Numbered from the stretch's first letter, positions 27,630-41,199 are shown. The stretch is 56,770 nt of DNA from Planctomycetota bacterium (GCA_026981825.1 JALSID010000285.1:1-56770), one strand, 5' to 3'. The notes: generated from the letters alone by a model not told the origin. Made by a program: numbers and translations.

Positions 27630-28478
27630 CTATGAGCGATGGCGGTTCCGTAGCCGTCGCGCGGCGATGGCTGCCGGGACACCCAACGCCATCAAGATCA
27701 GGCTGCCGGGTTCGGGATTGGGACGAGGGAGGTCGCCGTCCGAGGGGGGATCGCCGTTCCTCAGGTTACCCTTGTAGTAGCTAGGCAAGTAGTCCAGATC
27801 CGTGGTCATGAACACCACCGATGAGTAACCACCCGTGGGGATCGCACCGTCGCCGAACACGCCGAAGCCGGGAATGATCACCTGGTCCCAGGTGAAGCGA
27901 GCCATGCTGTCACCGGAATCCATCACTCCGGAAATCGGGTTGTAAGCCGAGCTATCGCTCGCAAAGCCCACCCCGGACACCCCGCTTTCGCTCGGTATAC
28001 CGTCCACCACGTCATCCCCCTTGTCGTCTCCGGGGGCCTCCGATCCGAGAAACCGGTTGCCGGCCGGACCAACGGGGGCTCCATCGGTGAACACGGTGTC
28101 CGCCAGGTAACCGATTGAGGTCAGAGCACTGGATGAATAGTTCGGCAGTTTGAGAACGTGCAAGTCGTGGTCTGGATCACCTGGAACGGCGTTGGGGTCG
28201 GTGTTCACCACCTGGTAGAAAAACACATACGCGGCATCAACGTCGATATAGTTACTGAGCAGCAGGGACGTTGCGACGCCGGAAAGGCCCAGCTCCGTAA
28301 CCCAGTTGTTCGTATCTGGCTTGTAAACAGCGAAGTTTACAATTCCGTCACTGCTGGGGTTGTCCGACATCTGCGTGTTGCCGGTCAACGACGTGAGCCA
28401 ACCGGCCGAAGCGGGATGGCTTAAGGCTGACAATACGGCCAGAGTAACCGCCGTGCGCAGGAGAGTCCGTGTGTGCAT
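27630..28478 (-). CDS. PEP-CTERM sorting-domain surface protein
   Basis: Signal peptide (…SHPASA); Gly/Ser/Asp-rich body; C-terminal NPEPGSLILMALGVPAAIAARRLRNRHRS (PEP, TM helix, basic tail). Confidence 0.9.
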   Translation of the reverse strand: MHTRTLLRTAVTLAVLSALSHPASAGWLTSLTGNTQMSDNPSSDGIVNFAVYKPDTNNWVTELGLSGVATSLLLSNYIDVDAAYVFFYQVVNTDPNAVPGDPDHDLHVLKLPNYSSSALTSIGYLADTVFTDGAPVGPAGNRFLGSEAPGDDKGDDVVDGIPSESGVSGVGFASDSSAYNPISGVMDSGDSMARFTWDQVIIPGFGVFGDGAIPTGGYSSVVFMTTDLDYLPSYYKGNLRNGDPPSDGDLPRPNPEPGSLILMALGVPAAIAARRLRNRHRS

Positions 28479-28901
28479 CTGCAGCTCCTCTTCCTCCTCC
28501 GATTTGGTCTGCCAACTTTACTTATGAGCGATTTCGTATCGTGGCTGTTCACCCACCTAGATACATTTCGAGCCCAGACGTGACCGGTGTTTGCACGCCG
28601 TCTGAGCCCGCACAACCCGTACAGCTTGTCCAGTTGCTCGGCGTCGTTACAGGTGGCCCATCCTCACGCTTGCGAAGTCGGCCGACGTCGTCGCATTCGA
28701 GCGAGCCCAGGGGGGGCCGCAACGAGGGCGTCGCTGCCGAAGGTTTACGGCTCGGTCCTTCTTGCGTCTTCCGATGACCCGCGGCCGTGGAGCCGGAGTC
28801 GCGTGGAGCCTGCATCTGAAAACCGTCCTGATGTGGCGGCCGAGGGGGAAAGGGATCTGGAGATAGGCTGATGCACAGCGGGCGAATGGCAGACGGCGCC
28901 A

Positions 28902-29060: not shown

Positions 29061-29393
29061 TCCTCGCGTCGCTCTGGGTTGGGACGGAGCGTTGTGGCCA
29101 AAGGTAAACTAAAGATTGTGGACGAGACACCCGGCCCGGACTGACTGCGCTAACGGGGCCAAACAGGGGCCGATCAGGGGGTTGCGTGCGCGGGCCCGTG
29201 AACTGGCGCCGAAGAGCTGTGGTGCGCACTGAGTTGTTCGGATGGGAGAACCACGTGGGGCAGTCGCGGGTGTGGAAAGGCCGGTTTGGAGCTGGAGGGG
29301 GGCTTTCGGCCACAGCCGCGTGACGGGAAGTGGGGGGGGCGTCTGGTCCGAGAAGCTGATGTCAGGGGGAAAATTGCACGAGGGCGAGAGCAT

Positions 29394-30080
29394 ATGTCAC
29401 CGAAGTTGGTATGGGCCTCGTCCGTGGGAGTGCTTGCGGTTGCGGTCGTCGTGTGGGAGCTGCAGCCGGCGCTCAGCAATCCTGACGTCGCATCTGCCGA
29501 TCAGCAGGTTGCCGCTGCACTCCGGTGGATGGAGCAGCATGAGGACTGGATGACCGTGCCACCGGAGCATGGCCGGTTTTTGTGGCAGATTGTCGAAGCG
29601 ACCAGGCCGCGGAGGATCCTGGAGGTGGGCAGCGCGTTTGGCTATGCGACCCTGTGGCTCGGCCGTGGGCTTCTAGGGCGCGAGGGGAACATCACATCGA
29701 TCGAGCTGCTTGAGGAGCGAGTCGAGATTGCGCGACAGGCGTTGGAGCGCGCCGGGCTATCGGCTCGCGTGCGCGTGATCACCGGGGACGCGTTCGAAGT
29801 GGTCCCGACGCTGAGCGGGCAATTCGACCTCATCTTTCTCGATGCGGCCAAGGCGGACTACCACCGTTTTTATGAGATGCTCTTGCCCAGGCTCCGGGAA
29901 GGCGGCGTTCTTCTTGCTCACAACGTCATTGCCCGTGCCCGGCAAGTGCGTCCTTTCCTGGATCGGATCGAAAGCGACAAGCGCGTGATCGCCTCGATCA
30001 TCCGGATCGGCGACGATGGCTTCGCCTTTTGCGTGCGGCGACGGGGAAAGGAATCGCAGGGGACGACCGACACGCCCTAG
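29394..30080 (+). CDS. SAM-dependent O-methyltransferase with an N-terminal hydrophobic/signal segment
   Basis: Motifs ILEVGSAFGYATLW, FDLIFLDAAKADY and GGVLLAHN (caffeoyl-CoA OMT-like). Confidence 0.88.
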   Translation: MSPKLVWASSVGVLAVAVVVWELQPALSNPDVASADQQVAAALRWMEQHEDWMTVPPEHGRFLWQIVEATRPRRILEVGSAFGYATLWLGRGLLGREGNITSIELLEERVEIARQALERAGLSARVRVITGDAFEVVPTLSGQFDLIFLDAAKADYHRFYEMLLPRLREGGVLLAHNVIARARQVRPFLDRIESDKRVIASIIRIGDDGFAFCVRRRGKESQGTTDTP

Positions 30081-30392: not shown

Positions 30393-31109
30393 ATGCGCAA
30401 GTGTGCATGTGGAGCGGTCAATCCGGACTGGGCTACGGAGTGCGCCAAATGTGGGGCTCCGCTGGGGGCTGCCTCCTCAGGAAGTGAGATCCAGGGCAGT
30501 GAGATGCAGGAACCGGCGCAGTCGCCCGAGCGGGGTGACGGCGGGGAAGGAACGAGCGCGGGTCGGCCGGATGTCCCGGCTTTTGGGGGACAAACTGGCG
30601 CAGCGAGCTCATCGGCCGCCGAGGGGCCGGCCGGCGCTGCGCCCTCGTGGGGGCAGCCCAGGTCGCCGACGTCGCCCCCAGCAAGGGGGCAGCTTGGTCC
30701 ACCCCCATGGCCTGCTTCCGGCGCAGGGGCTGATGTCCCGGGTGCGCCGCCGGCCTGGGGCGGGCCGGGCTCGACCGGCGGCACCACGACCGGGGCGGAC
30801 TACGTACAGGGCCCTGCGGTGGTGTTGCCTGCGGCGCCGGCGTGGGAGCAGCGAGGACCAGAGCAGCCTCGGAAAGCGAGGAAAGAGATCTCGCCTGTTG
30901 CGCTGGGTATCGTCGGGCTGTTTGCCGCGTGCGTCCCGATCGCGGGAGCACCGCTCAATGCGATCGCCATCTGGAGGGGCACGCGCGCGATCCGACAGGG
31001 GGAAACAGTAGCCGGGGTGATCGGATTGGTCTTGGGTGTGGTGGGCTTTATCCTTACGCTGCTGAATGCGGCGTTTGGCGTGTATCTGGCCTTACGGGGT
31101 GGACCGTAG
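30393..31109 (+). CDS. Zinc-ribbon + Pro/Gly-rich linker + DUF4190-like membrane protein
   Basis: GGAGGT RBS; N-terminus MRKCACGAVNPDWATECAKCGAPL; low-complexity middle; C-terminal ALGIVGLF…AIAIWRG…AGVIGLVLG. Confidence 0.75.
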   Translation: MRKCACGAVNPDWATECAKCGAPLGAASSGSEIQGSEMQEPAQSPERGDGGEGTSAGRPDVPAFGGQTGAASSSAAEGPAGAAPSWGQPRSPTSPPARGQLGPPPWPASGAGADVPGAPPAWGGPGSTGGTTTGADYVQGPAVVLPAAPAWEQRGPEQPRKARKEISPVALGIVGLFAACVPIAGAPLNAIAIWRGTRAIRQGETVAGVIGLVLGVVGFILTLLNAAFGVYLALRGGP

Positions 31110-31127
31110 GCGCATGCGCCCGCCGCC

Positions 31128-32358
31128 TTTGGCTTTTTGGAGTGCGGCACTCCGGTGCCGCTTTGGCTCTTTGGAGTGCGGCACTCCGGTGCCGCTTTGG
31201 CTTTTTGGAGTGCGGCACTCCTGTGCCGTTTTGGCTCTTTGGAGTGCGGCACTCCTGTGCCGCTTTGGCTCTTTGGAGTGCGGCACCCCCGTGCCGCTTT
31301 GGCTTTTTGGAGTGCGGCACCCCTGTGCCGCTTTGGCTCTTTGGAGTGCGGCACTCCGGTGCCGCTTTGGCTCTTTGGAGTGCGGCACTCCGGTGCCGCT
31401 TTGGCTCTTTGGAGTGCGGCACTCCCGTGCCGCTTTGGTTTTTTGGAGTGCGGCACCCCGGTGCCGCTTTGGCTTTTTGGAGTGCGGCACTCCCGTGCCG
31501 CTTTGGTTTTTTGGAGTGCGGCACCCCCGTGCCGCTTTGGCTTTTTGGAGTGCGGCACCCCCGTGCCGCTTTGGCTTTTTGGAGTGCGGCACTCCCGTGC
31601 CGCTTTGGCTCTTTGGAGTGCGGCACCCCCGTGCCGCTTTGGCTCTTTGGAGTGCGGCAGTCCCCTGCCGCTTTGGCTCTTTGGAGTGCGGCACTCCCGT
31701 GCCGCTTTGGCTCTTTGGAGTGCGGCACTCCCGTGCCGCTTTGATTCTTTTGGAGTGCGGCCCTCCTGTGCCGCTTTGGCTCTTTGGAGTGCGGCACTCC
31801 CGTGCCGCTTTGGCTCTTTGGAGTGCGGCAGTCCTCTGCCGCTTTGGCTTTTTGGAGTGCGGCACTCCGGTGCAGGTTTGGCTCTTTGGAGTGCGGCAGT
31901 CCTCTGCCGCTTTGGCTCTTTGGAGTGCGGCACCCCCGTGCCGCTTTGGCTCTTTGGAGTGCGGCACCCCCGTGCCGCTTTGGCTCTTTGGAGTGCGGCA
32001 CTCCCGTGCCGCTTTGGCTCTTTGGAGTGCGGCACTCCCGTGCCGCTTTGATTCTTTTGGAGTGCGGCCCTCCTGTGCCGCTTTGGCTCTTTGGAGTGCG
32101 GCACTCCTGTGCCGCTTTGGTTCTTTGGAGTGCGGCACTCCGGTGCCGCTTTGGCTCTTTGGAGTGCGGCACCCCGGTGCCGCTTTGGCTTTTTGGAGTG
32201 CGGCAGTCCTCTGCCGCTTTGGCTCTTTGGAGTGCGGCACTCCCGTGCCGCTTTGGCTCTTTTGGAGTGCGGCACTCCCGTGCCGCTTTGGCTCTTTGGA
32301 GTGCGGCACTCCCGTGCCGCTTTGGCTCTTTGGAGCGCGGCACCCCCGTGCCGCTTTG
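31128..32358. repeat. Tandem head-to-tail array of 36 copies of a 34-bp REP-type hairpin
   Basis: Unit GGAGT-GCGGCAC-NNNN-GTGCCGC-TTTGGCT(C/T)TTT. First GGAG at 31139, last at 32332; three units are 35 bp. No unique spacers. Confidence 0.95.
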
Positions 32359-32441
32359 CTTCCACAGACGAGTATCTACCCCCTTCATTTCGAGGGCTAT
32401 CTCCCCCCACCCTTTAGAGCAGTATCTCCTCCCATCACCGC
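32357..32441. repeat. Three degenerate 25-bp direct repeats after a TG dinucleotide; possible IS21/Mu-like transposon end
   Basis: GACGAGTATCTACCCCC (32367), GAGGGCTATCTCCCCCC (32392) and GAGCAGTATCTCCTCCC (32417); the TATCT cores are exactly 25 bp apart. Confidence 0.5.
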
Positions 32442-33673
32442 CGCGGCAGTACCGGCAGCCACGTTTGCAGATTCTGCCCCTCGCCGATTTCGAGCACAGC
32501 AGGCTCGTCCGCCTCGAGAGCGGCTTGAACCTCAGCTGCCGGGAATTCGATGAGGCCGTCCGGGCCTACAGAGGCGGCAACTCCGGCCAGTCGAGCAATC
32601 TGGCCATCGAAGTCGGCAGTCGGCTTTCCAGGAATTACCTGGCGGCCCACGCGGAGCGCGTAAGCGATCCGCACCGGAAGCTTGCCAGGATCTTTCAGAG
32701 TCGCCGGCGCCGAGGGCAGATCGACATACGCCCGATACCGATCGTCCGGGCTGGCCCAGCGCAGCTCAGATAAGTGCACGGCATCCGCAAGAGACGGGAC
32801 GTCCGCCGCCACCGCCACAGACTGCCTCGATTGCCACTCCCGCAGCCTGCTCAAAACCTTCAATAGACGTCGGTTTAGCCAGGCCGTCAGAGCAGTCGCC
32901 ATGAGCAGCCGAGAAACCCGGCTGTCCGGGACACTGCTCGCCTCCAGCTCCCCCCGCTCCGCCTTCTCAAAGCGTGCAACGTGCTCCAGCACCGGAATAG
33001 CATTCTGCACGGTGGCGACAAGCTCGTCATCCCCGTTCTCATAGTCGACAGCCCCCACGAATGCGAGGAGCCAGTTACGGGCCGGAATAAACGCGGCCGC
33101 ACGCTTTCGAAGCCCTTCACGGGCCACCAGCAACGCGTGGTGCTTCCGCGCCAGCACATCCTGCAACTTCCGCTCAAGAAGTTTGCACGCCACCCAATGG
33201 CCCACCTCCAGCATGTCCAGCTCATCCAGGAGCCCGGCCCACGTACCCTCGTCGTCGACGTCTTCCTCGTCCGCTCGCTCCACTTTCCGCAGCCAATCAA
33301 GCGGACGAATCGCTTCGGTGGCAACGCTCGCCAGATCCTCCTTGCTCGCCTGGAAACCCTGTTCCTCGACACGCGCCCGTGCGCCCAGATCAAGCCACTG
33401 ACTCCACAGCTCGTTCAACCCCACTGCAACTGGGGGCTCTTCCCGAGCAAGGCCTGCGAGGAGTCTCTTGTCAGCGCGATGTAAGCGAGCCCAGCTTGCA
33501 AGGAGTCGCAGAGCGGCATCCGGATCCTGCGTCTTGTGTTTCGGTAGGAGTTGAGCGTAATCCGAGACCCACCGGCGGACCAGTGCCTGCGATCCCTCGC
33601 CCGCCGGCGAGTCCTGTCCAATCTCTGCAAGCAACCAGTCCAGCCGATTCTTCAGCTCGTGTGCTTTCCCCAT
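32435..33673 (-). CDS. Hypothetical protein (412 aa); helical N-terminal part, beta-rich C-terminal domain
   Basis: ATG with GGAGGG RBS; plausible amino-acid composition; no family recognised. Confidence 0.8.
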   Translation of the reverse strand: MGKAHELKNRLDWLLAEIGQDSPAGEGSQALVRRWVSDYAQLLPKHKTQDPDAALRLLASWARLHRADKRLLAGLAREEPPVAVGLNELWSQWLDLGARARVEEQGFQASKEDLASVATEAIRPLDWLRKVERADEEDVDDEGTWAGLLDELDMLEVGHWVACKLLERKLQDVLARKHHALLVAREGLRKRAAAFIPARNWLLAFVGAVDYENGDDELVATVQNAIPVLEHVARFEKAERGELEASSVPDSRVSRLLMATALTAWLNRRLLKVLSRLREWQSRQSVAVAADVPSLADAVHLSELRWASPDDRYRAYVDLPSAPATLKDPGKLPVRIAYALRVGRQVIPGKPTADFDGQIARLAGVAASVGPDGLIEFPAAEVQAALEADEPAVLEIGEGQNLQTWLPVLPRR

Positions 33674-33694
33674 TGAAGCTACCCTCCACTTAGG

Positions 33695-33722
33695 ATTATG
33701 CGGTGCATGAAGTGCTTCGCAA
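33695..33722 (-). promoter_or_regulatory. Possible sigma70-like promoter of the 412-aa gene
   Basis: Minus strand TTGCGA-N16-CATAAT just upstream of the RBS. Confidence 0.35.
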
Positions 33723-34113
33723 CATCATCACGCCTTGCACCTGCCTCGCTTCGTCCACATGGTCTACGCCACCCGAACTGCTGGTCTGACACGGGCCGCC
33801 TTGCCCGATGCCGACACAAGCGAGGCCGTGCGGCTACGCCAGCCCCCCGTGACACTGCCAATCGCGCCGCTTTGTTGCAAGATCTGATCACCGATCGCAC
33901 GGACATGCCCCCTGTGCTGGAGCCGTTCGGCTTGGAACAGCAGCCAGGGCAAGCGGACTGCAACCAATGGATTGGGGTGTAACAGGCTCGCAGACGGGCA
34001 GGCCGCAGGAGACATACTCTCGCCGAGTTCTGCGTTGAGGCTGGTTCGTTCGGCGCCCGGCGATCGCTAGCCGGTAGGTTCTCCGCCGCAGGGCACAGGG
34101 CACAAGTTCGATT

Positions 34114-34989
34114 TCACACGCCATAGATTGCTCGCCAAAGGGTGACGGCTTCCGGGTCGATCCCATCGAAAGCGCCATTGTCCAGCAATTCGGCGAGCTT
34201 TGCCCGGAGCCGTTCGCGCCACTTGTAATGAACCTGTGCACTTGCGCGGACGCGCGGTGCTAGCGCCTTGACCGCTTCGATCAAACGACCGCTCGTGATC
34301 GCCAGCCCCTCGGGGCCCACGCTTGCTGACACGGCGGCCCAGATATCCGCGATAGTCGGCCAGGAGGGGCGAACGCGCAGGGCTCGGTCCTGCGTGGACC
34401 ACGGCAAGTAAGCTTGCACGAGATGAATCCACGCGAAGCCAGGCTGGGCGGTATCGTCGTCGCAAGCTCTGAAAGAGTTATAAAGGCCGATGCGCCCCTC
34501 AAGGAGGTAGAGGGCGTACCATTCCACGCTGCCGCGTACTTGCGTTAAGTGGTGGAAAACGACCCTGTCAATCTCGCGAAGCATGCGGGCGATGCGTTTG
34601 AGTTTTTCGCGACTAAGCGATTCTTCGGCAGGACGGTTTGGTGCCGGCACGCCATCGAGGAACTCCTTGTCTGCAGCTTGAACACCGGGCGGGGAGAATG
34701 TGTCAAGGATGCGTCGCCTGGCCGTAACGCGAACCCACCTCCGCACCGCAGCAAGGCTGCGACTTCTGCTAGGGTGCCACTTGCCGCTCCAGATCTGAAA
34801 CAAGACGTGACTTGCGGCGTCATCCAGCCGATCGGGGTCCTCTTGCGCCAGTCTCACAAGCTCTCGAGAGGACGCGATCCAACGCTTGATTATCCCCCAG
34901 AGTAGTTCTGCCGCGGCCTGGTCACCTCGGCGCATGCGAACCACAAGGCGAACAAAAGCGTTCAGAGACAGGCTATACCCCGGCGGCAT
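34114..34989 (-). CDS. Divergent ECF/sigma70-like factor
   Basis: Region-2-like RMRRGDQAAAELLW…LDDAASHVLFQIW…RRWVRVTARRRILD; a long insert; then an HTH-like end ASAQVHYKWRERLRAKL. The start could extend to 35127. Confidence 0.6.
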   Translation of the reverse strand: MPPGYSLSLNAFVRLVVRMRRGDQAAAELLWGIIKRWIASSRELVRLAQEDPDRLDDAASHVLFQIWSGKWHPSRSRSLAAVRRWVRVTARRRILDTFSPPGVQAADKEFLDGVPAPNRPAEESLSREKLKRIARMLREIDRVVFHHLTQVRGSVEWYALYLLEGRIGLYNSFRACDDDTAQPGFAWIHLVQAYLPWSTQDRALRVRPSWPTIADIWAAVSASVGPEGLAITSGRLIEAVKALAPRVRASAQVHYKWRERLRAKLAELLDNGAFDGIDPEAVTLWRAIYGV

Positions 34990-35309
34990 CGACCCCGTTC
35001 CGAGAGAGTGGAACAGCCCTCGCCAACCTTGTCCGAACGAGCACGCGGAACCCCTCAGCACGGCTATACCTCCCCGATTACGAAACCCTACAACCAGTAA
35101 CCTTAGCAACCTCCATATACTACGCACGAGCTGAGCGCCGGTGAAGTCCCCAGTAAGCGGGCTTCAACGGGCGCTTCGGCGGGTCGACGAGGAGACGGGC
35201 TAACGAAATGTAAACATGCCAACGAGCCGTGCCGCAACTCCATGCAGCAGGGAGACCGGCGATGGATGTCGCGACGCCGGGAACTCGGGTTCCGGGGGGG
35301 CACGCCCGG

Positions 35310-36257
35310 TCAGAACGGACGATTGAGGCCACGGAGGTGGGGGTAACGTTGGAGCGCCTGGCGGAGAGCCCAGGCGCGTTTCAAGCGTTGAAGGGGGCCA
35401 CGATTGCCAAAGCGGAGCCGGCCGCGCACGTAGCGGCTAGTCCACCCGTCGAACTGTTGATAATACGGCGCCGGCCAGACACGCCCACGCCCTACCAGGA
35501 TTTTCACCCCCTCAATGGCAGCTACGCCCGCACAAAGCTGGCACGCCCCTCCGAAGCTCGGCGCCCGGTCCTGTTCCACATCAACCGCGTCCCGGTCGAA
35601 GTAAGCGAGGTGCAGCCCCCGGGGGGCAAGGCCAAGGGCAAAGGCGATCAGCGCCTCCAGATACGTGCCGCACGAGGAGAAATCGAAATACTCTTCGGCA
35701 CTCATGCCGTGGGGGCTAAAGACGAGCCACGCGACGCCAAAACCAACAGGGCCGGCCGTGATCGCCCAGATGCCCCGCTCATGGCACACCCGAAATAGCC
35801 ACCTCCGTAAACCCACCGCGAAGAAGTCGACTCCGTCCACGAACAGATCGGCCCCCTCAAGGAACTCGGCGATGTTCTCCTTCGAAACCCCCTCCGAGAA
35901 CACGCGGATCTCCGCCTCAGGATTGATCTCACGGATCACAGAGGCCATCGCATCGGCTTTGTTCCGCCCCAGGAACTCGGTCGTGGCGCCATACTGGCGG
36001 TTGAAGTTGGCCACCTCAAAGGTGTCGGGATCTGCGATGCGAAAGCGGCCCACCCCGGCCCGGGCAAAGGTCACCGCGTGGATACCCCCCACGCCCCCCA
36101 TGCCGGCGATCGCAACGCAAGCCTCCCGAAGAAGAGCTTGCTCCTCGCCCGTCACCAGCCCAATGTTGCGCGCAAACGCCTCCTCGTACGACCAGCCTGC
36201 CCGCCTGGCCTGAGCGGACACCTTCGCCGAGCGGCCAAACAGAGCCGAAAGCTGCAC
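35310..36257 (-). CDS. ThiF/E1-like adenylyltransferase (stand-alone)
   Basis: Motifs YEEAFARNIGL, IAGMGGVGG, ADPDTFEVANFNRQ and DGVDFF; GTG at 36257 with GGAGG. No CxxC zinc pairs and no fused nitroreductase domain. Confidence 0.9.
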   Translation of the reverse strand: MQLSALFGRSAKVSAQARRAGWSYEEAFARNIGLVTGEEQALLREACVAIAGMGGVGGIHAVTFARAGVGRFRIADPDTFEVANFNRQYGATTEFLGRNKADAMASVIREINPEAEIRVFSEGVSKENIAEFLEGADLFVDGVDFFAVGLRRWLFRVCHERGIWAITAGPVGFGVAWLVFSPHGMSAEEYFDFSSCGTYLEALIAFALGLAPRGLHLAYFDRDAVDVEQDRAPSFGGACQLCAGVAAIEGVKILVGRGRVWPAPYYQQFDGWTSRYVRGRLRFGNRGPLQRLKRAWALRQALQRYPHLRGLNRPF

Positions 36258-36297
36258 AACGTCCCTCCGCTTCGACCTTCCTCCGGTGGTGGCGCGG

Positions 36298-37359
36298 TCA
36301 AGGCCCTCGCGCGTCGGCGACCTCCGAAGACTCCGACGCTTCGATGACCACGTCCACACGCAGCCCCACCGGAAGCCGAACGCTTTCGTCCAGATCGATC
36401 CAGGCTTCTAGAACCCTCGTGTCGTATCGCTCTCCGGGCTCGAAGGAAAACAGGCTCTTCGAACGCACGATGCCCGAGACGGACGTCACGCGGCCCCGGA
36501 ACTGTCGGTCAGGGAGCCCGTCCACGGTCACCGTCGCCGGCGCCCCGATCCGAAGCCGCGGCACGTCGTATTCCTCAACAAAGGCACGCACGCGACTGCG
36601 CGAGTCGTCGACCACCACCACGGCAGCCTCAACCGTCGTCGGACCAATCACTTCCCCCACCCGGCAGTTCACATCCACGACGATTCCGTTCACGGGCGCC
36701 CGGATCGTAAGCTTCTCCAGCAGGGCCTCAAGCTGACGGACGCGCGACCGAGCTGCGTCCAGTTCCGCCTCGGCCGCCTGTCGCCGTTCGGTTCTTGCAC
36801 CGGCCTGGAGCAACTGCAATTCCGCCGCCGCAGCCGCCTGCTCGGCCGCCGCAGCCAGATAGCGTTTCTGCTCGTCTTCGACTTCCTCCCGGCGAGCCGC
36901 GTCGCGTTCCCACAGAGCAACCAGGCGGCGGTAGCGGCTTTCGTGCAGTTGGGCGCGTGCCCGGGCAGCCAGCCAGCGCTGGCGCGCCGCTTCCAGCTCC
37001 TGCGGCCGCGGCCCATTCACGATCTCGGCCAAACGCGCCATCGCCGCATCCGCCGCTGCCTTGGCCTCCTGCAAACGGGCTTGCAGCTCGCTGGCGTCCA
37101 GCTCAAGCAGCGTTGCCCCCTGCGTCACCACCTGGCCGGGAGCAACGTGCACCGCGGCAACCCGCCCGACGAGCTCGGGACGAAGCTCGTACGGTTCCGT
37201 AGCCCCCTCAATCCGCCCTACTGCGAAAATCGGTGCCTCCTCCTGTGGCCGTGGCGGAGCCCCTTCCAGGCGGACGGGACGGCTGCGTAAGTCCATCAGG
37301 TAAGCCAGGCCGCCTACCAGTACCACGGTGATGGTCAACAACGCAATCGGTCGAGTCAT
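36298..37359 (-). CDS. HlyD/DevB-like periplasmic adaptor (membrane fusion protein)
   Basis: N-terminal TM helix; lipoyl halves GRVAAVHVAPGQVVTQG and IRAPVNGIV; coiled coil with GPRPQEL/GARTE; LPVGLRVDV. Confidence 0.9.
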   Translation of the reverse strand: MTRPIALLTITVVLVGGLAYLMDLRSRPVRLEGAPPRPQEEAPIFAVGRIEGATEPYELRPELVGRVAAVHVAPGQVVTQGATLLELDASELQARLQEAKAAADAAMARLAEIVNGPRPQELEAARQRWLAARARAQLHESRYRRLVALWERDAARREEVEDEQKRYLAAAAEQAAAAAELQLLQAGARTERRQAAEAELDAARSRVRQLEALLEKLTIRAPVNGIVVDVNCRVGEVIGPTTVEAAVVVVDDSRSRVRAFVEEYDVPRLRIGAPATVTVDGLPDRQFRGRVTSVSGIVRSKSLFSFEPGERYDTRVLEAWIDLDESVRLPVGLRVDVVIEASESSEVADARGP

Positions 37360-37360
37360 C

Positions 37361-38098
37361 TCATGCCGCCGTCGATGCTTCGACGAGCCTGCCCGCCTCC
37401 AGTTCGAAGACCCGGTCGGCGTATTCCAGAATCCGCCGGTCGTGGGTGACAACGATAACCGTGTGCTGCCGCGTCTTTGCCAGTTCGCGAAGCAACCGCA
37501 TCACCTTCGCCCCCGTCTGGGCATCGAGCGACGCCGTGGGCTCATCGGCCAGCAGCAAGGGCGGATCGCACGCCAGTGCTCGGGCGATTGCCACACGCTG
37601 ACACTGCCCAACGCTCATGAGGCGGGGATCCTGGTCGGCGCGACCTTCCAGGCCCACGAGTTCCAGCAGTCGCCGAGCCTGCCGCCGAGCGGCCCGCCGG
37701 GAAACGCCGGCCAGAATCAGCGGCAGCATGACGTTCTCCTCGGCAGTTAAACCGCGGAGAAGATGGAACCGTTGAAACACGAAGCCGATCGTACTCCGAC
37801 GAAGCGCACTCCGCTCCGCCTCTGCCAGACCACCCACCTCGGTTCCAAACAACTCTACCTTGCCCGAGTCCGGCCGCAGAACGCAACCGATGATGGACAG
37901 CAAGGTTGTCTTGCCACAACCGGACGGACCGAGCAGGTAGACGCATTCGCCTCTGGCAACCGACAGGTCCACTCCACGCAGGACCTGCTCTACGTGTTCC
38001 CCCCGCCGGTAGCTCTTCGTCACGTGCTCCAACCGAACCGCATCTATCGCGGAGTTGGGGACTCTTTCCAGTGGTGCCGTCGAGCTAACGGTTGCCAT
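37361..38098 (-). CDS. ABC transporter ATP-binding subunit (LolD/DevA-like)
   Basis: Motifs GPSGCGKTT, IGFVFQRFHL, MSVGQCQRVAIARA, LADEPT and VTHD. Confidence 0.95.
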   Translation of the reverse strand: MATVSSTAPLERVPNSAIDAVRLEHVTKSYRRGEHVEQVLRGVDLSVARGECVYLLGPSGCGKTTLLSIIGCVLRPDSGKVELFGTEVGGLAEAERSALRRSTIGFVFQRFHLLRGLTAEENVMLPLILAGVSRRAARRQARRLLELVGLEGRADQDPRLMSVGQCQRVAIARALACDPPLLLADEPTASLDAQTGAKVMRLLRELAKTRQHTVIVVTHDRRILEYADRVFELEAGRLVEASTAA

Positions 38099-38112
38099 GA
38101 GTGTGCCGTCCG

Positions 38113-39234
38113 TTACTGCAGAGCGAGCATGGGATCCACCTGGCGCAGCTTCATGTAGGGGGGTATAGCCGAGGCAAGGGCCACGAGCACCACGGCCAAG
38201 CAACTACCCACCGACAACCACCAGGGGATCCAAATCGGCGCCCGTGGCGTGCTGAATGCCCACTGGATGCCACCGACAACGACCATTCCCACACAACACG
38301 CGATCAACGCCAGGAAGAGCGCCTGGGCCAGAAGCACAATCGCCAGATCGCGGTTGCGGATGCCCATCGCCTTGAGAGCGGCGAATTCGGGCATGCGGTC
38401 CAGTACGGAGGCATACATTGTCTGGGCAACGATGCTGAGCCCCACCAGCATTCCCAGCAGTGTGGCCGCGCCGAAGCTGATGCCCAGGCCGGTGCGCCTC
38501 ATCCAAAAATCGACCGACAGCCGGCTGTACTCTCCGCGGGTGTACACGTCCGCTTCGGGGATGCGCAGTCGGATCTGGTCGCACAAGGCGCGCAGATCCG
38601 CTCCCGGACGGGCGCGAACGAGGATGTAGGAGCACGCCCCCGGTGGTTTGCGGCAGAAGCGGGCCGCCCTGGAGAAGGTGGTGAAGACGTACGGAGCGAC
38701 CAGGAAGCCCATGACCCCCCTGGTGTACGCGACGATCCTGGCTCGTTTCCCGCCGATTTCGCGCACCTCTCCAATGCGGGGCCAGCCCAGCTTGGGCAGT
38801 TCGTAGACATCGACGGTGATCCCGTCTGGCCGGAGGACGTCGCGAGGGTTACCTCGGACGACGTTCCAGGCATTCCCCAGGAGCTCGGGAGGCTCGGCTC
38901 CCACCACGACCACCGCCTCGCGCCCCCCACCAGGCACCGTGATGCTCGACCAACCGATCAAATACGGTGCCGCCGTTTCCACGTCGGGCAGGGCGCGAAT
39001 ACGGTTCGCCCAGGCGGCAGGGATGTCTTCGGCAAAATCGACGTTATGCATGCGGCGGTGGCCCACCCAGATGTCGGCGTCCCCGTAGTCCACCATCAAA
39101 CTGACCTTGCGGATCAAGCCAATAAAAAGCCCCCCTTGGACGTTCATGAGCACGAGCGTGAACGTGAGGCCGAGAAGGGCCATCAAGCATTTCCAAGGGT
39201 CCGCCTTGAGTGTCTTGGTCGCGATGCCCCACAT
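38113..39234 (-). CDS. ABC permease, FtsX/MacB/DevC-like
   Basis: One N-terminal TM, a periplasmic domain with ADIWV, the motif EFAALKAMG, three C-terminal TMs, ending in VDP. Confidence 0.9.
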   Translation of the reverse strand: MWGIATKTLKADPWKCLMALLGLTFTLVLMNVQGGLFIGLIRKVSLMVDYGDADIWVGHRRMHNVDFAEDIPAAWANRIRALPDVETAAPYLIGWSSITVPGGGREAVVVVGAEPPELLGNAWNVVRGNPRDVLRPDGITVDVYELPKLGWPRIGEVREIGGKRARIVAYTRGVMGFLVAPYVFTTFSRAARFCRKPPGACSYILVRARPGADLRALCDQIRLRIPEADVYTRGEYSRLSVDFWMRRTGLGISFGAATLLGMLVGLSIVAQTMYASVLDRMPEFAALKAMGIRNRDLAIVLLAQALFLALIACCVGMVVVGGIQWAFSTPRAPIWIPWWLSVGSCLAVVLVALASAIPPYMKLRQVDPMLALQ

Positions 39235-39267
39235 GCCTTCGCCTGTATCAGCTTTACCCTCCCGGGA

Positions 39268-39978
39268 CTAGGCCGCGATCCTCTGGGGAGGTTCCCAAAT
39301 CTCCCCCTCCGCGTCCGGATCCAGACCGACAAGGTACGCGAAGTACAGGAAGTCGCTGCGGCTCATGGGGGGCACCTGCAGTCGACTGGCCGGAATCTTG
39401 GGATGGAGGTAGCGGCGACAGATCTCAGGCTTCAAGACGCGGTGCGCCCGGGTTAGATCGAGCCGCAGGCCCACCGCCGGCGCCCCCATCACGTACGGAT
39501 GGGGACGGCATCCCGTGAACGGTTCAAACGCAAAGACCTCCTCGTAGAACCGAGCCTGCTTCGGATGCACGGCGATCACGATGTCGTCGTACCGGGACCA
39601 GTAGCAGTACTGCACGAGTAGCCGCGTCAGCTCAAAGAACACCGATAGCGCGATCCGCTGGTGACCGGGTACAATGGCGAACCCGGTGGCCTCGGCAAGC
39701 CGCCGCCCCTCGCTGCGCAATTCGTTCAGCTCACTGCGGAAGAGAACGTCTGCCGGAATGCCACGGCCGGAATCCCCCACCACGCTCAGCGTCCCAAGTA
39801 CCCGCGTCGGGCCCTGCAAGTAAACCAGCGTGCGACTGGTCGGAAAGGCAAGGTGGGGACTGAAGCGGACCCGCGCCGGATGGGGAGGCGTGTAACCCTG
39901 GCGGCGATAAGTCTCGTACAGAACCCGCAGGGCGAGCAGATACTCTGTCCGGGTCTTCGCGATCCGTGCGTGCATCAT
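39268..39978 (-). CDS. FeeM-like N-acyl amino acid synthase (GNAT fold), copy 1
   Basis: Motifs YETYRRQGY, LGTLSVVGDSGRGIPAD.LF..EL..LRSEGRRLAE, IAVHPKQARFYE..F.F and GAPAVGLRLDL. Confidence 0.8.
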   Translation of the reverse strand: MMHARIAKTRTEYLLALRVLYETYRRQGYTPPHPARVRFSPHLAFPTSRTLVYLQGPTRVLGTLSVVGDSGRGIPADVLFRSELNELRSEGRRLAEATGFAIVPGHQRIALSVFFELTRLLVQYCYWSRYDDIVIAVHPKQARFYEEVFAFEPFTGCRPHPYVMGAPAVGLRLDLTRAHRVLKPEICRRYLHPKIPASRLQVPPMSRSDFLYFAYLVGLDPDAEGEIWEPPQRIAA

Positions 39979-40030
39979 GTCCGCCTGTCGATTAGTACCC
40001 CCGAAACGCTGCGCCCCAGCCGTGCGCCGC

Positions 40031-40080
40031 AGTATCGAAGAAACGTCCGCATTTGTCAAATGTAACGCGTTCGCTGTCAA
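40031..40080 (-). promoter_or_regulatory. Sigma70 promoter of the FeeM-ABC-ThiF operon, with a repeated TTGACA motif
   Basis: Minus strand TTGACA-N17-GATACT (40059-40031). A second TTGACA lies 21 bp upstream (40075-40080). The -35 sits inside the near-palindrome ATTTGTCAAAT. Confidence 0.6.
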
Positions 40081-40404
40081 TTTCGGGCCCAGTAGCCAGC
40101 CGGGCCTGGTTCGCACCTCGGAACAGTCGGAGGCACCGTTCCGTTTCGCACAACGAGGCTCCGACGGGTGCGGTCCTACACTTCTATCGGCATCGCAGCC
40201 GTTCGGTACGGGGAGGCGGGGCCGGGGCAAACTCGGGTAGTAGCGGTTGTCCGACCTGTGACCGCAGCGCGAACCCCTGCACGGTGGCTATACACGGTCC
40301 GCTTGCAAGGTAGAGTCCCTTAGAGAGTGTTGACCACGCAAGTCGCACGGGCACCTCACTGACCGGCGAAGAAAAGGCACTTTATACGAGCCGGGGAGGT
40401 GACC

Positions 40405-41199
40405 ATGGGAGCGAACATGTCGCTAGTAGATTCGAGGATTGCCCACACCTGTCAGCCGCCGACGGAACCTGGCCCCGCGTTTCTGGAGTCCGCTCGTCGG
40501 GAACCGGCTCAGCTCGGGCCTGCGTTACGTCTCGCGGAAACGCCCGAGCTACGGCATGCGGCTCTCGACCTCGTTCTCGAGTACTACAAGCGGCAAGGGT
40601 ACGTGCCGCCAGACGCCGTCGCCACCCACGTTCACCGCTACGCACTGGTACCAGGGGCAGAGACGATCGTGGCGTGCGATTCCGATGGGACCGTCCTCGC
40701 CACGCTGACGCTCGTGCCCGACGGCCCCTGGGGCCTACCGATGGATAGCCTCTACCGCGAGGAGCTCACCCGGCTTCGTAAAGAAGGGCGCGTTCTTGCC
40801 GAATGCATCGGGTTTGCCTCCCGGGTGCTGGAACGACACGCGACCCTTCGTTTGGTGGTCTCTCTGACACGAGCGGCGATGTGGTTCGCTTTGCGTTCCG
40901 GCAGAACAGATCTGGTCGTTACCGTCAACCCGCGGCACGTCCACTTCTACGCGCGGCTGTTGCCGTTCCAAATCATCGGAGCAGAGAAGCAGTACGCGGC
41001 CGTGCAAAACGCTCCCGCAGTTCCGCTCCGCTTGAACTTGCTGACCCTTGCCGAAGAGCGGGAGCGGAGGCGGGCGGCTTACCGCAACTACCTGGGCGAA
41101 CTCGACCTGCGTAACCTCCAGACCACCTCGACCTTCCGTCCACCATCACCGGGCGAGTCCGCAACCGATGCTGCAAGCGACCGACAGGAAGCAGACTAG
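40405..41199 (+). CDS. FeeM-like N-acyl amino acid synthase (GNAT fold), copy 2
   Basis: GGAGGT RBS; motifs YYKRQGY, ATLTLVPDGPWGLPMDSLYREELTRLRKEGRVLAE, TVNPRHVHFY..LL.F and NAPAVPLRLNL. Confidence 0.85.
   Translation: MGANMSLVDSRIAHTCQPPTEPGPAFLESARREPAQLGPALRLAETPELRHAALDLVLEYYKRQGYVPPDAVATHVHRYALVPGAETIVACDSDGTVLATLTLVPDGPWGLPMDSLYREELTRLRKEGRVLAECIGFASRVLERHATLRLVVSLTRAAMWFALRSGRTDLVVTVNPRHVHFYARLLPFQIIGAEKQYAAVQNAPAVPLRLNLLTLAEERERRRAAYRNYLGELDLRNLQTTSTFRPPSPGESATDAASDRQEAD

What the first reader, a model, noticed from the sequence alone, without database searches (positions are those of the whole stretch)
32357..41199. Candidate lipo-amino-acid synthesis/activation/export system: twin FeeM synthases + stand-alone ThiF + DevBCA-like exporter
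Seen in sequence: a tight minus-strand operon FeeM1 -> permease -> ATPase -> HlyD -> ThiF (gaps of 1-40 bp) under a near-consensus sigma70 promoter, with a second FeeM gene divergent from it. Established: FeeM-type enzymes make long-chain N-acyl amino acids from acyl-ACP. In OxzAB, a ThiF-nitroreductase fusion activates and cyclises such products to oxazolones. N-acyl amino acid synthases are also genomically linked to PEP-CTERM/exosortase systems, and DevBCA exports heterocyst glycolipids. Inference: here ThiF has no oxidase domain and is paired with two acyltransferases and its own exporter. The product could be a different adenylation-derived lipid (for example an N-acyl dipeptide, azlactone or ester), a signal molecule, or an envelope/anchor lipid. 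I do not know of this configuration being characterised in planctomycetes.
Basis: partly seen in the sequence, partly recalled or inferred. Interest (0 to 1): 0.8.

Follow-up and report, generated by a model that had tools for sequence, protein, structure and literature searches.

The report
N-acyl amino acid lipid cluster with exporter
This planctomycete gene cluster pairs two enzymes that attach fatty acids to amino acids with a ring-closing ThiF enzyme and its own export pump, a new arrangement of the known bacterial N-acyl amino acid and oxazolone lipid pathway.

Summary
On the minus strand lie FeeM1, a MacB/DevC-like permease, an ABC ATPase, a HlyD adaptor and ThiF, with gaps of 33, 14, 1 and 40 bp. 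FeeM2 is divergent. The low end of the given range (32357-35309) holds an unrelated two-gene insertion.

The ThiF is not an orphan. It passes the curated cut-off of NCBIfam PRK08223. It is 48-58% identical to the ThiF halves of ThiF-nitroreductase fusions, the domain pairing described for OxzB and TrzS. Among 80 relatives' loci, 65 have the flavin oxidase fused or within 10 kb.

So this is the known NAS + ThiF cyclase (+ flavin desaturase) pathway: Oxz, Tyz/Trz and the candidate stieleriacine cluster. What differs here:
- A dedicated exporter is co-inherited. FeeM + ThiF + three-part exporter occurs in 10 loci of 9 planctomycete genomes, with shuffled gene order.
- The oxidase is not in the cluster. 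This genome has one on contig C75, beside another FtsX/ABC exporter.
- Two genomes with the cluster showed no such oxidase.

Verdict: a new variant of a known kind, of moderate interest.

The parts
40399..41199 (+). FeeM2, an N-acyl amino acid synthase (FeeM/NAS-type GNAT). It is divergently transcribed and is its own transcription unit. The true start may be 40405 or 40417.
   Evidence: PF21926, 123.2 bits. It matches positions 28-206 of the 989-position model NF011425. The G151 orthologue is 63% identical. It keeps 18 of 18 family columns conserved at 80% or more.
39979..40398 (.). Divergent intergenic region between FeeM1 and FeeM2. It holds a sigma-70-like site, TTGACA-17-GATACT, at 40059-40031 (-).
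   Evidence: One search found 2 sites against 1.2 +/- 1.4 expected, so the site is a consensus match only. The sequence was read.
39268..39978 (-). FeeM1, an N-acyl amino acid synthase and the first gene of the operon.
   Evidence: PF21926, 133.5 bits. It matches NF011425 positions 27-205. The G151 orthologue is 53% identical and aligns from residue 2. FeeM1 is 32% identical to FeeM2 and keeps 15 of 18 conserved columns.
38113..39234 (-). MacB/DevC-like ABC permease, with a periplasmic core domain and an FtsX four-helix domain.
   Evidence: PF12704 + PF02687. TIGR01185 devC scores 72.9 bits, below its 290 cut-off. It is the only G000 hit of the permeases from 10 other ThiF-linked exporters.
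37361..38098 (-). ABC ATPase of the exporter (DevA/LolD/MacB-NBD-like).
   Evidence: PF00005, 116.5 bits. TIGR02982 DevA family scores 231.8 bits, below its 295.8 cut-off.
36298..37359 (-). HlyD-family membrane fusion (periplasmic adaptor) protein with an N-terminal membrane anchor.
   Evidence: PF16576 and PF13437. TIGR02971 DevB family scores 97.2 bits, below its 129 cut-off.
35310..36257 (-). Stand-alone ThiF-family adenylating enzyme of the PRK08223 family. It is the predicted ATP-dependent cyclase of N-acyl amino acids (TyzB/OxzB-ThiF type).
   Evidence: NF006077 scores 396.3 bits against a 266 cut-off. It is 48-58% identical to ThiF-nitroreductase fusions. The best solved relative of the family profile is TcdA, E = 2.4e-26. 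The AlphaFold2 model has pLDDT 86 and an E1/ThiF fold.

Best explanation
The locus is a planctomycete biosynthesis-and-export cluster for N-acyl amino acid lipids of the oxazolone pathway type.

Proposed steps:
1. The two deeply diverged FeeM-type synthases each join a fatty acyl group (from acyl-ACP or acyl-CoA) to an amino acid. They probably differ in amino acid or chain-length preference.
2. [quoted passage not shown] The amide oxygen then attacks, closing a 5(4H)-oxazolone ring. This is the reaction shown for TyzB and for the ThiF domains of OxzB and TrzS.
3. The permease, ATPase and HlyD adaptor form a MacAB/DevBCA-like pump. With an outer-membrane channel encoded elsewhere, it moves the lipid out of the cytoplasmic membrane or periplasm.
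4. The flavin desaturase that normally completes the pathway is not in the cluster. If it takes part, it is the TyzC-like gene on contig C75.

Shown here: the gene content, family membership, conserved linkage and fusion relatives.
Inferred: the substrates, the ring closure, what is exported, and whether the unlinked oxidase takes part.
For: 1. Family calls: two FeeM domains, MacB_PCD/FtsX, ABC, HlyD and ThiF. The ThiF passes the curated PRK08223 cut-off.

2. Fusion evidence. FeeM1 and FeeM2 match positions 27-206 and the ThiF matches 313-586 of one 989-position NCBIfam model, NF011425. A ThiF-oxidase fusion in G020 matches positions 307-986 of the same model. The model therefore describes a synthase-ThiF-oxidase triple fusion.

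3. There are 551 longer relatives at E <= 1e-20. By my count of the table, about 88 of the 120 listed carry nitroreductase + ThiF, at 48-58% identity to this ThiF.

4. Context of 80 loci chosen only by ThiF similarity:
- oxidase fused in 17, separate but within 500 bp in 39, at 0.5-10 kb in 9, none in 15;
- FeeM present in 32.

5. Phyletic pattern. The ThiF occurs in 8 of 151 sampled planctomycete genomes, and all 8 are among the 11 genomes with strong FeeM hits.

6. Ten loci in 9 genomes hold FeeM + ThiF + all three exporter parts, in at least four gene orders. Every one of their permeases finds the window's permease as its only match in G000.

7. The family profile's best solved relative is TcdA, the ThiF-family enzyme that cyclises an N-carbamoyl amino acid. 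E = 2.4e-26, against 2.4e-21 for ThiF and 4.7e-19 for MoeB.

8. The model shows the Rossmann fold starting at about residue 47, with no N-terminal peptide-clamp domain.

9. Literature:
- OxzA/OxzB (bioRxiv 10.1101/2020.06.11.147165, passages read).
- TyzA/B/C, with TyzB a stand-alone ThiF (PMC10404671, passages read).
- TrzS, whose ThiF domain makes the saturated ring when the oxidase is disabled (PMC12856293, abstract and passages read).
- NAS + ThiF + nitroreductase in Stieleria (PMC12479983, abstract, passages and section 6 read).
Against: - No oxidase gene lies within the 56.8-kb window. Five of the ten exporter-type loci also lack one within 10 kb.
- G118 (99% complete) gave no TyzC-like match to an oxidase profile. 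G066 (94% complete) gave only 23-bit matches in short frames. The same profile scored 403 bits on the positive control G117. The canonical three-enzyme route therefore cannot be universal for this cluster type.
- The C75 oxidase sits with a different FtsX/ABC exporter in both G000 and G151. It may serve another pathway.
- I could not align TyzB, OxzB or the Stieleria proteins directly, because no tool gave me those sequences. The link to characterised enzymes rests on shared architecture and on the papers' descriptions.
- FeeM1 has Q where 92% of the family has H in one conserved column.
- No product, substrate or expression data exist for this organism.
Confidence: 0.68

Rival explanations
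1. Oxidase-free chemistry. In this exporter-linked lineage the ThiF works without any flavin desaturase. The cell would then make a saturated, chemically reactive 5(4H)-oxazolone (azlactone). It would either export it or use it as an activated acyl donor, for example to form an N-acyl dipeptide, ester or epimerised N-acyl amino acid. FeeM2 might supply or accept the second building block.
For: - Five of ten FeeM + ThiF + exporter loci have no oxidase within 10 kb.
- An oxidase profile gave no TyzC-like match in G118 (no hit at all) or in G066 (only 23-bit matches in short frames), although it scored 403 bits on the control G117.
- The TrzS ThiF domain produces the cyclised saturated intermediate when its oxidase is inactive or oxygen is limiting (PMC12856293, passages read).
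- The ThiF family also fuses to methyltransferase, AMP-binding and P450 domains, so its chemistry has been diversified.
Against: - The window's ThiF and its G151 orthologue sit among oxidase-linked ThiFs. The oxidase-less exporter loci are scattered on the tree: 8 rows need 7 changes. This points to repeated loss or unlinking, not to a distinct enzyme clade.
- G000 and G151 both keep a TyzC-like oxidase elsewhere.
- The Stieleria authors state that planctomycete pathways are often unclustered (PMC12479983, section 6).
- Saturated azlactones hydrolyse readily, which would make the ATP spent futile unless the ring is trapped.
Confidence: 0.17
2. An envelope lipid rather than a secreted metabolite. 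The pump would place the N-acyl amino acid lipid into the outer membrane or cell surface, as DevBCA does for heterocyst glycolipids and LolCDE for lipoproteins. The product would then be structural.
For: - The ATPase scores highest against the DevA (231.8 bits) and LolD (209.9 bits) models, and the adaptor and permease resemble DevB and DevC.
- MacB-type pumps take substrates from the membrane or periplasm (review PMC5985334, listing and abstract only).
- C12-tyrazolones are suggested to sit in membranes (PMC12856293, discussion passage).
Against: - All Dev models score below their cut-offs.
- The cluster is patchy: the ThiF is in 8 of 151 sampled planctomycete genomes and 3 of 31 relatives. 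This fits an accessory metabolite better than a core envelope lipid.
- Stieleriacines are described as secreted (PMC12856293 introduction, citing Kallscheuer et al.).
Confidence: 0.1
3. The ThiF acts on a peptide or protein carboxylate, as in RiPP maturation (MccB, PaaA) or sulfur-carrier/ubiquitin-like activation. The FeeM enzymes would then lipidate that peptide, and the ABC/HlyD system would export it.
For: - Most characterised ThiF-like enzymes act on peptides, proteins or tRNA (review PMC12596934, section 4 read).
- HlyD + ABC exporters are common in peptide clusters.
- Foldseek also lists PaaA, MccB and AclA among the matches.
Against: - The operon gaps of 1-40 bp leave no room for a precursor gene.
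- No conserved small ORF was seen across the loci. Only ORFs of 80 aa or more were compared there.
- The model has no N-terminal peptide-binding domain.
- ThiF/MoeB/MoeZ models score 55-85 bits against cut-offs of 150-650.
- A separate housekeeping ThiF/MoeB-like gene exists on contig C271.
- The close relatives are fused to the oxidase of the small-molecule pathway.
Confidence: 0.03

Closest known systems
TyzA/TyzB/TyzC tyrazolone pathway of Mycobacterium tuberculosis (PMC10404671)
   Same: It has an AHL-synthase-fold N-acyltransferase and a stand-alone ThiF cyclase of about 318 aa encoded as a separate gene. A lipid exporter gene (mmpL9) lies next to the cluster.
   Different: In Mtb the oxidase TyzC is in an operon with TyzB. 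Here no oxidase is in the cluster. This locus also has two synthases and an ABC/MacB-type exporter rather than an RND one.
OxzA/OxzB oxazolone synthetase (Pseudoalteromonas rubra) and TrzA/TrzS (Mtb)
   Same: The same two activities are present: an N-acyl amino acid synthase and a ThiF-type ATP-dependent cyclisation. The window's ThiF is 48-58% identical to ThiF-nitroreductase fusion proteins with the same domain pairing.
   Different: OxzB and TrzS are ThiF-oxidase fusions. Here the ThiF stands alone, the oxidase is unlinked, and a dedicated exporter is built into the operon.
Candidate stieleriacine clusters of Stieleria (Planctomycetota; PMC12479983)
   Same: Same phylum. One to four NAS genes are clustered with a ThiF-family gene. 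The authors call the role of the ThiF 'enigmatic'.
   Different: The Stieleria clusters, as described, include a nitroreductase and a methyltransferase, and no transporter is mentioned ('transporter' occurs 0 times in the main text). Their Figure 3 shows only the genes thought to be involved, and I could not see the supplements.
DevBCA / MacAB-TolC type tripartite ABC exporters
   Same: Three separate genes encode an FtsX/MacB-core permease, an ABC ATPase and a HlyD adaptor. A role in lipid export is plausible.
   Different: The DevA, DevB and DevC models all score below their cut-offs. No TolC-like gene lies in the window, although 18 OEP matches occur elsewhere in the genome. In the relative L009 an OEP gene lies 722 bp downstream of the adaptor, after a 136-aa ORF.

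Membership tests
Oxz/Tyz/Trz-type N-acyl amino acid to oxazolone pathway | FeeM/NAS-type N-acyltransferase encoded with the ThiF | tested here: met
   Two PF21926 genes are present, one in the ThiF operon and one divergent. Linkage is conserved: FeeM occurs in 32 of 80 ThiF loci and in all 10 exporter-type loci.
Oxz/Tyz/Trz-type N-acyl amino acid to oxazolone pathway | ThiF-family adenylating cyclase homologous to the ThiF part of ThiF-oxidase fusions, with an intact nucleotide-binding motif | tested here: met
   NF006077 scores 396.3 bits against a 266 cut-off. The ThiF is 48-58% identical to nitroreductase + ThiF fusions. The glycine-rich loop, the NRQ motif, the lysine and the D141/D144 motif are invariant in 18 family members. 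Mapping onto TrzS D217 is by analogy, not by alignment.
Oxz/Tyz/Trz-type N-acyl amino acid to oxazolone pathway | Flavin-dependent oxidase (nitroreductase superfamily) fused to or next to the ThiF | tested here: not met
   None is in the window. A TyzC-like gene lies on contig C75:2386-3624. It scores 370.8 bits to the oxidase profile and sits beside another FtsX/ABC exporter.
Oxz/Tyz/Trz-type N-acyl amino acid to oxazolone pathway | An oxazolone or N-acyl (dehydro)amino acid is produced | not testable with these tools
   This needs expression and LC-MS. No RNA run holds the locus.
DevBCA heterocyst-glycolipid exporter family (NCBIfam TIGR02982, TIGR02971, TIGR01185) | Scores above the curated cut-offs of the DevA, DevB and DevC models | tested here: not met
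   DevA scores 231.8 against 295.8. DevB scores 97.2 against 129. DevC scores 72.9 against 290.35.
MacB-type (FtsX/MacB core domain) tripartite ABC efflux pump | Permease with MacB periplasmic core domain + FtsX domain, an ABC ATPase and a HlyD-family adaptor encoded together | tested here: met
   PF12704 + PF02687, PF00005, and PF16576/PF13437 lie in three adjacent genes. The ATPase is a separate polypeptide, unlike the MacB model NF007826, which it matches only over positions 6-226 of 648.
MacB-type (FtsX/MacB core domain) tripartite ABC efflux pump | Outer-membrane factor (TolC-like) partner | tested here: inconclusive
   No OEP gene lies in the window. There are 18 OEP matches on other contigs. 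An OEP gene lies 722 bp downstream of the adaptor in relative L009, after a 136-aa ORF.
RiPP-type ThiF enzymes (MccB, PaaA) | N-terminal peptide-binding domain and a precursor peptide gene | tested here: not met
   The Rossmann fold starts at about residue 47 of 315, and residues 1-22 are disordered. Operon gaps are 1-40 bp. No conserved ORF of 80 aa or more of this kind was seen across the loci, and shorter ORFs were not compared.
ThiF/MoeB sulfur-carrier adenylyltransferases | Score above the equivalog cut-offs, and a ThiS/MoaD partner | tested here: not met
   TIGR02356 scores 84.9 against 275. TIGR02355 scores 55.1 against 376. No small partner gene is in the cluster. No paired CxxC zinc motifs are conserved in the family alignment.
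PEP-CTERM/exosortase-associated acyltransferases | Match to the exosortase-associated acyltransferase model (I recall such an NCBIfam model; its name comes from no call) | tested here: not met
   The only NCBIfam hit of FeeM1 and of FeeM2 at E <= 0.01 was NF011425. Presence of an exosortase in the genome was not searched.

The most novel reading that the evidence does not exclude
The exporter-linked clusters may be an oxidase-independent branch of the pathway. The ThiF would turn N-acyl amino acids into saturated azlactones. These are activated lipids with an acyl-homoserine-lactone-like shape. A dedicated MacB-type pump would expel them, or something made from them, as a signal or a reactive antibiotic.

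Three observations are consistent with this but do not show it:
- Two genomes with the cluster showed no TyzC-like oxidase.
- FeeM-type enzymes share the AHL-synthase fold (PMC10404671, passage read).
- Paralogous FeeM/ThiF loci in other planctomycetes sit beside long ECF sigma factors and FecR-like proteins, which hints at a sensing circuit.
Probability: 0.15. Interest if true: 0.7.

Novelty: new variant of a known kind. Interest (0 to 1): 0.45.

Why it matters
[quoted passage not shown] The role of the ThiF gene in the planctomycete stieleriacine pathway is called enigmatic (PMC12479983).

This cluster type hard-wires the synthases and the cyclase to a specific export pump. That argues the cyclised or derived lipid is meant to leave the cell. 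It also gives a handle for experiments: exporter mutants, and comparison of supernatant with cell pellet.

The oxidase-less versions offer a natural test of what the ThiF step does on its own.

Nothing here suggests a new enzyme family. The value lies in pathway architecture and in genome mining of an under-explored phylum.

Tried and rejected
- orf337, orf412 and the methyltransferase at 29286-30080 as cluster members: rejected. They gave no tblastn hits in 18 related loci. In G151 the ThiF is followed directly by the orthologue of window gene 27630-28517. The orf337/orf412 pair has its own paralogues away from any FeeM or ThiF.
- orf337 as a sigma factor: remains a lead only. Atlas features score 0.96, with 182 shared, against Sigma70_r2 clusters. 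Pfam and NCBIfam give nothing. hhalign against long planctomycete sigma factors gives only 9% probability.
- orf412: no usable Atlas hit.
- Promoter: the consensus match is not above the chance expectation.
- Small nitroreductase on C404 as the missing oxidase: rejected. It scores only 26 bits to the oxidase profile.
- Expression: no RNA holder is listed for the locus, and read laying was not used.
- Earlier notes of this scan: nothing for this place.
- FeeM-ThiF two-domain fusions: none was seen among the 9 long relatives scanned, out of 120 listed. The fusion evidence is therefore the NF011425 model itself. No planctomycete in the 151 sampled passes its cut-off.
- Literature: two searches for a link between N-acyl amino acid or oxazolone pathways and MacB/DevBCA/ABC export found no such report. 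The library lacks most subscription journals, and supplements were closed.
- Complex prediction was not used, because the report does not claim that these proteins bind.

Full report
**What is there**

The window is high-GC planctomycete DNA. DUF1501 and PSCyt2/PSD1 genes flank the locus. On the minus strand five genes follow one another:
- FeeM1, 39268-39978.
- A permease with a MacB periplasmic core and an FtsX domain, 38113-39234.
- An ABC ATPase, 37361-38098.
- A HlyD-family adaptor, 36298-37359.
- A ThiF-family protein, 35310-36257.

The gaps are 33, 14, 1 and 40 bp. The starts are supported by database protein P0001 and by the G151 orthologues. FeeM2 (40399-41199) is divergent.

A TTGACA-17-GATACT site sits about 50 bp upstream of FeeM1. 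Such matches are not rarer than chance in this stretch.

**What does not belong**

Two ORFs lie there: orf337 (34114-35127) and orf412 (32435-33673).
- They form a separate gene pair, with a paralogous pair on contig C213 and another in G151 on contig C96. Neither is near a FeeM or a ThiF.
- In G151, the only same-family genome held, the order is FeeM2 ... FeeM1-permease-ATPase-HlyD-ThiF. The orthologue (78% identity) of window gene 27630-28517 follows directly.
- Relative to G151, orf337, orf412, the 34-bp tandem array (31122-32358) and the O-methyltransferase (29286-30080) are therefore an insertion.

**What the ThiF is**

- It passes the curated cut-off of NCBIfam NF006077/PRK08223 (396.3 against 266 bits). 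It scores far below the cut-offs of the ThiF, MoeB, MoeZ and TcdA models.
- The family is large: 1840 near-length relatives among 5962 candidates scored.
- There are 551 longer relatives at E <= 1e-20. By my count, about 88 of the 120 listed combine nitroreductase and ThiF domains, at 48-58% identity to the window's protein. About 15 carry a UbiE-like methyltransferase. Single examples carry an AMP-binding enzyme or a P450.
- A ThiF fused to a nitroreductase-family flavin oxidase is the domain pairing of OxzB and TrzS (bioRxiv 10.1101/2020.06.11.147165, passages; PMC12856293, abstract and passages).
- Both FeeM proteins match positions 27-206 and the ThiF matches 313-586 of one 989-position NCBIfam model, NF011425. 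A ThiF-oxidase fusion from G020 matches 307-986 of it. A synthase-ThiF-oxidase triple fusion therefore exists as a curated family.
- The best solved relative of the family profile is TcdA, which cyclises an N-carbamoyl amino acid. E = 2.4e-26, against 2.4e-21 for ThiF.
- The AlphaFold2 model (pLDDT 86.1, pTM 0.85) has the E1/ThiF fold and no N-terminal peptide-binding domain.

**Context in other genomes**

The ThiF is patchy in Planctomycetota: 8 of 151 sampled genomes, including G000, and 3 of 31 relatives. All 8 are among the 11 genomes whose best FeeM hit is below 1e-30. Kin are not independent, so I give no test.

In 80 loci taken only by ThiF similarity from named genomes:
- the oxidase is fused in 17, separate within 500 bp in 39, at 0.5-10 kb in 9, and not seen in 15 (some contigs are truncated);
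- FeeM is present in 32.

These include Massilia terrae (FeeM-ThiF-oxidase) and the pirellulacean Roseiconus nitratireducens (three FeeM, ThiF, oxidase). They mirror the Massilia kyonggiensis and Stieleria clusters described in PMC12479983 (section 6 read).

**The exporter is part of the module**

FeeM, ThiF and all three exporter parts occur together in 10 loci of 9 genomes, all Planctomycetota. They are the window, L032 (G151), L007 (G118), L009 (G066), L010 and L011 (G091), L036, L037, L040 and L098.

Gene order varies:
- FeeM-exporter-ThiF.
- FeeM-ThiF-exporter.
- Exporter-FeeM-FeeM-ThiF-oxidase.
- FeeM-FeeM-exporter-oxidase-ThiF.

This is the pattern expected of a functional unit. The permease of each of these loci, and of a Geobacter locus, has the window's permease as its only G000 match at E <= 1e-5. 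The pump is therefore a dedicated, co-inherited type. All DevA/B/C models score below their cut-offs, so 'DevBCA-like' describes architecture and not membership. No TolC-like gene lies in the window, although the genome has many.

**The missing oxidase**

- Five of the ten exporter-type loci have the oxidase within 10 kb (L010, L036, L037, L040, L098). Five do not (the window, L032, L007, L009, L011).
- On the ThiF tree the window pairs with L032 (support 99). Its next neighbours are oxidase-linked, and the oxidase-less exporter loci are scattered, with 7 changes for 8 rows. This indicates repeated unlinking or loss, not a distinct enzyme clade.
- G000 carries a TyzC-like oxidase on C75:2386-3624. 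It is 33% identical to the L010 oxidase and scores 370.8 bits to an oxidase profile. It lies in a run with a 1175-aa FtsX permease and an ABC ATPase.
- G151 keeps the same oxidase-FtsX-ABC neighbourhood on its contig C39.
- The same profile scored 403 bits on the control G117. It found nothing in G118 (99% complete) and only 23-bit matches in short frames in G066 (94% complete).

**The two synthases**

FeeM1 and FeeM2 are 32% identical (62 of 194 positions). Of the family columns conserved at 80% or more, FeeM1 keeps 15 of 18 and FeeM2 keeps 18 of 18. FeeM1 has Q for a 92%-conserved H. Each pairs with its own G151 orthologue at 100% support, and they are far apart on the tree. They are old paralogues, consistent with different substrate preferences. 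Which amino acids they use cannot be read from sequence.

**Mechanism proposed**

1. The synthases make N-acyl amino acids.
2. The ThiF adenylates the carboxylate, and the amide oxygen closes a 5(4H)-oxazolone ring.
3. A flavin oxidase, if it takes part, introduces the double bond.
4. The MacB-type pump, with an unlinked outer-membrane channel, expels the lipid.

The first three steps are established for Oxz, Tyz and Trz (papers cited above) and are inferred here by homology and linkage. The export step is inferred from conserved linkage only.

TrzS shows that the ThiF step can run on the saturated substrate when the oxidase is disabled (PMC12856293). An oxidase-free route is therefore chemically possible, and I keep it as the main rival and the novel reading.

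**Novelty**

The enzymology is a known kind. NAS + ThiF + nitroreductase clusters have already been pointed out in planctomycetes (PMC12479983). New, as far as two full-text searches show, are the conserved coupling to a dedicated ABC/HlyD exporter and the existence of oxidase-less versions. The Stieleria paper's main text never mentions a transporter. Its Figure 3 omits uninvolved genes, and I could not open its supplements.

I rate the finding a new variant of a known kind, with interest 0.45.

Noticed in passing
window 31122-32358 (also near 1388): There are 36.3 tandem copies of a 34-bp unit at 92% match. Each copy carries a 7-bp-stem hairpin, and the stem variants co-vary (GCAC..GTGC against GCAG..CTGC). 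The unit hits 55 contigs of the genome, often at contig ends. It creates fake ORFs of 300-536 aa on both strands at 30800-32773 and terminator-like hits. It looks like a genome-wide REP-like tandem element, and it probably fragments the assembly.
   Followed up: partly
window 34114-35127 (-) and 32435-33673 (-): orf337 + orf412 form a conserved two-gene pair with no Pfam or NCBIfam match. Paralogous pairs lie on G000:C213 and G151:C96. orf337 probably starts at its residue 47. It resembles Sigma70_r2-containing clusters by language-model features (0.96), but a profile comparison was weak. It may be a very divergent sigma-like regulator with a partner protein.
   Followed up: partly
Many lie beside long ECF-type sigma factors (508-762 aa), FecR-domain proteins (513-770 aa) or B12-binding radical SAM enzymes. 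Some sit in tandem arrays with several ThiF copies. This suggests a large, regulated family of acyl-amino-acid-derived molecules.
   Followed up: partly
G000 contig C75:2386-8028 (locus L035); G151:C39 (locus L116): A TyzC-like flavin oxidase (412-aa ORF) is encoded with a 1175-aa FtsX permease and an ABC ATPase. The linkage is kept, with rearrangement, in the same-family genome G151. This could be the unlinked desaturase of the pathway, or part of a second lipid-export system.
   Followed up: partly
window 29286-30080 (+): This is a class I O-methyltransferase (Methyltransf_3, 86.7 bits), 5 kb from the ThiF and beyond the insertion. It gave no tblastn hit in the related clusters. Methyltransferases are fused to or clustered with this ThiF family elsewhere (PMC12479983). 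A role here is unsupported.
   Followed up: partly
G000 contig C323 (locus L003:313-2094, -): A third, distant FeeM-like domain (34.6 bits) is fused to a class-V aminotransferase domain in a 593-aa ORF. ORFs of about 600 aa with similarly weak FeeM matches recur in other planctomycetes.
   Followed up: no
locus L008 (G117:C5): In this locus the ThiF-oxidase pair is divergent from a 1094-aa AcrB-type RND transporter instead of the ABC pump, with two FeeM genes nearby. This is a second, independent pairing of the pathway with an exporter, as with mmpL9 beside tyz in M. tuberculosis (PMC10404671).
   Followed up: no
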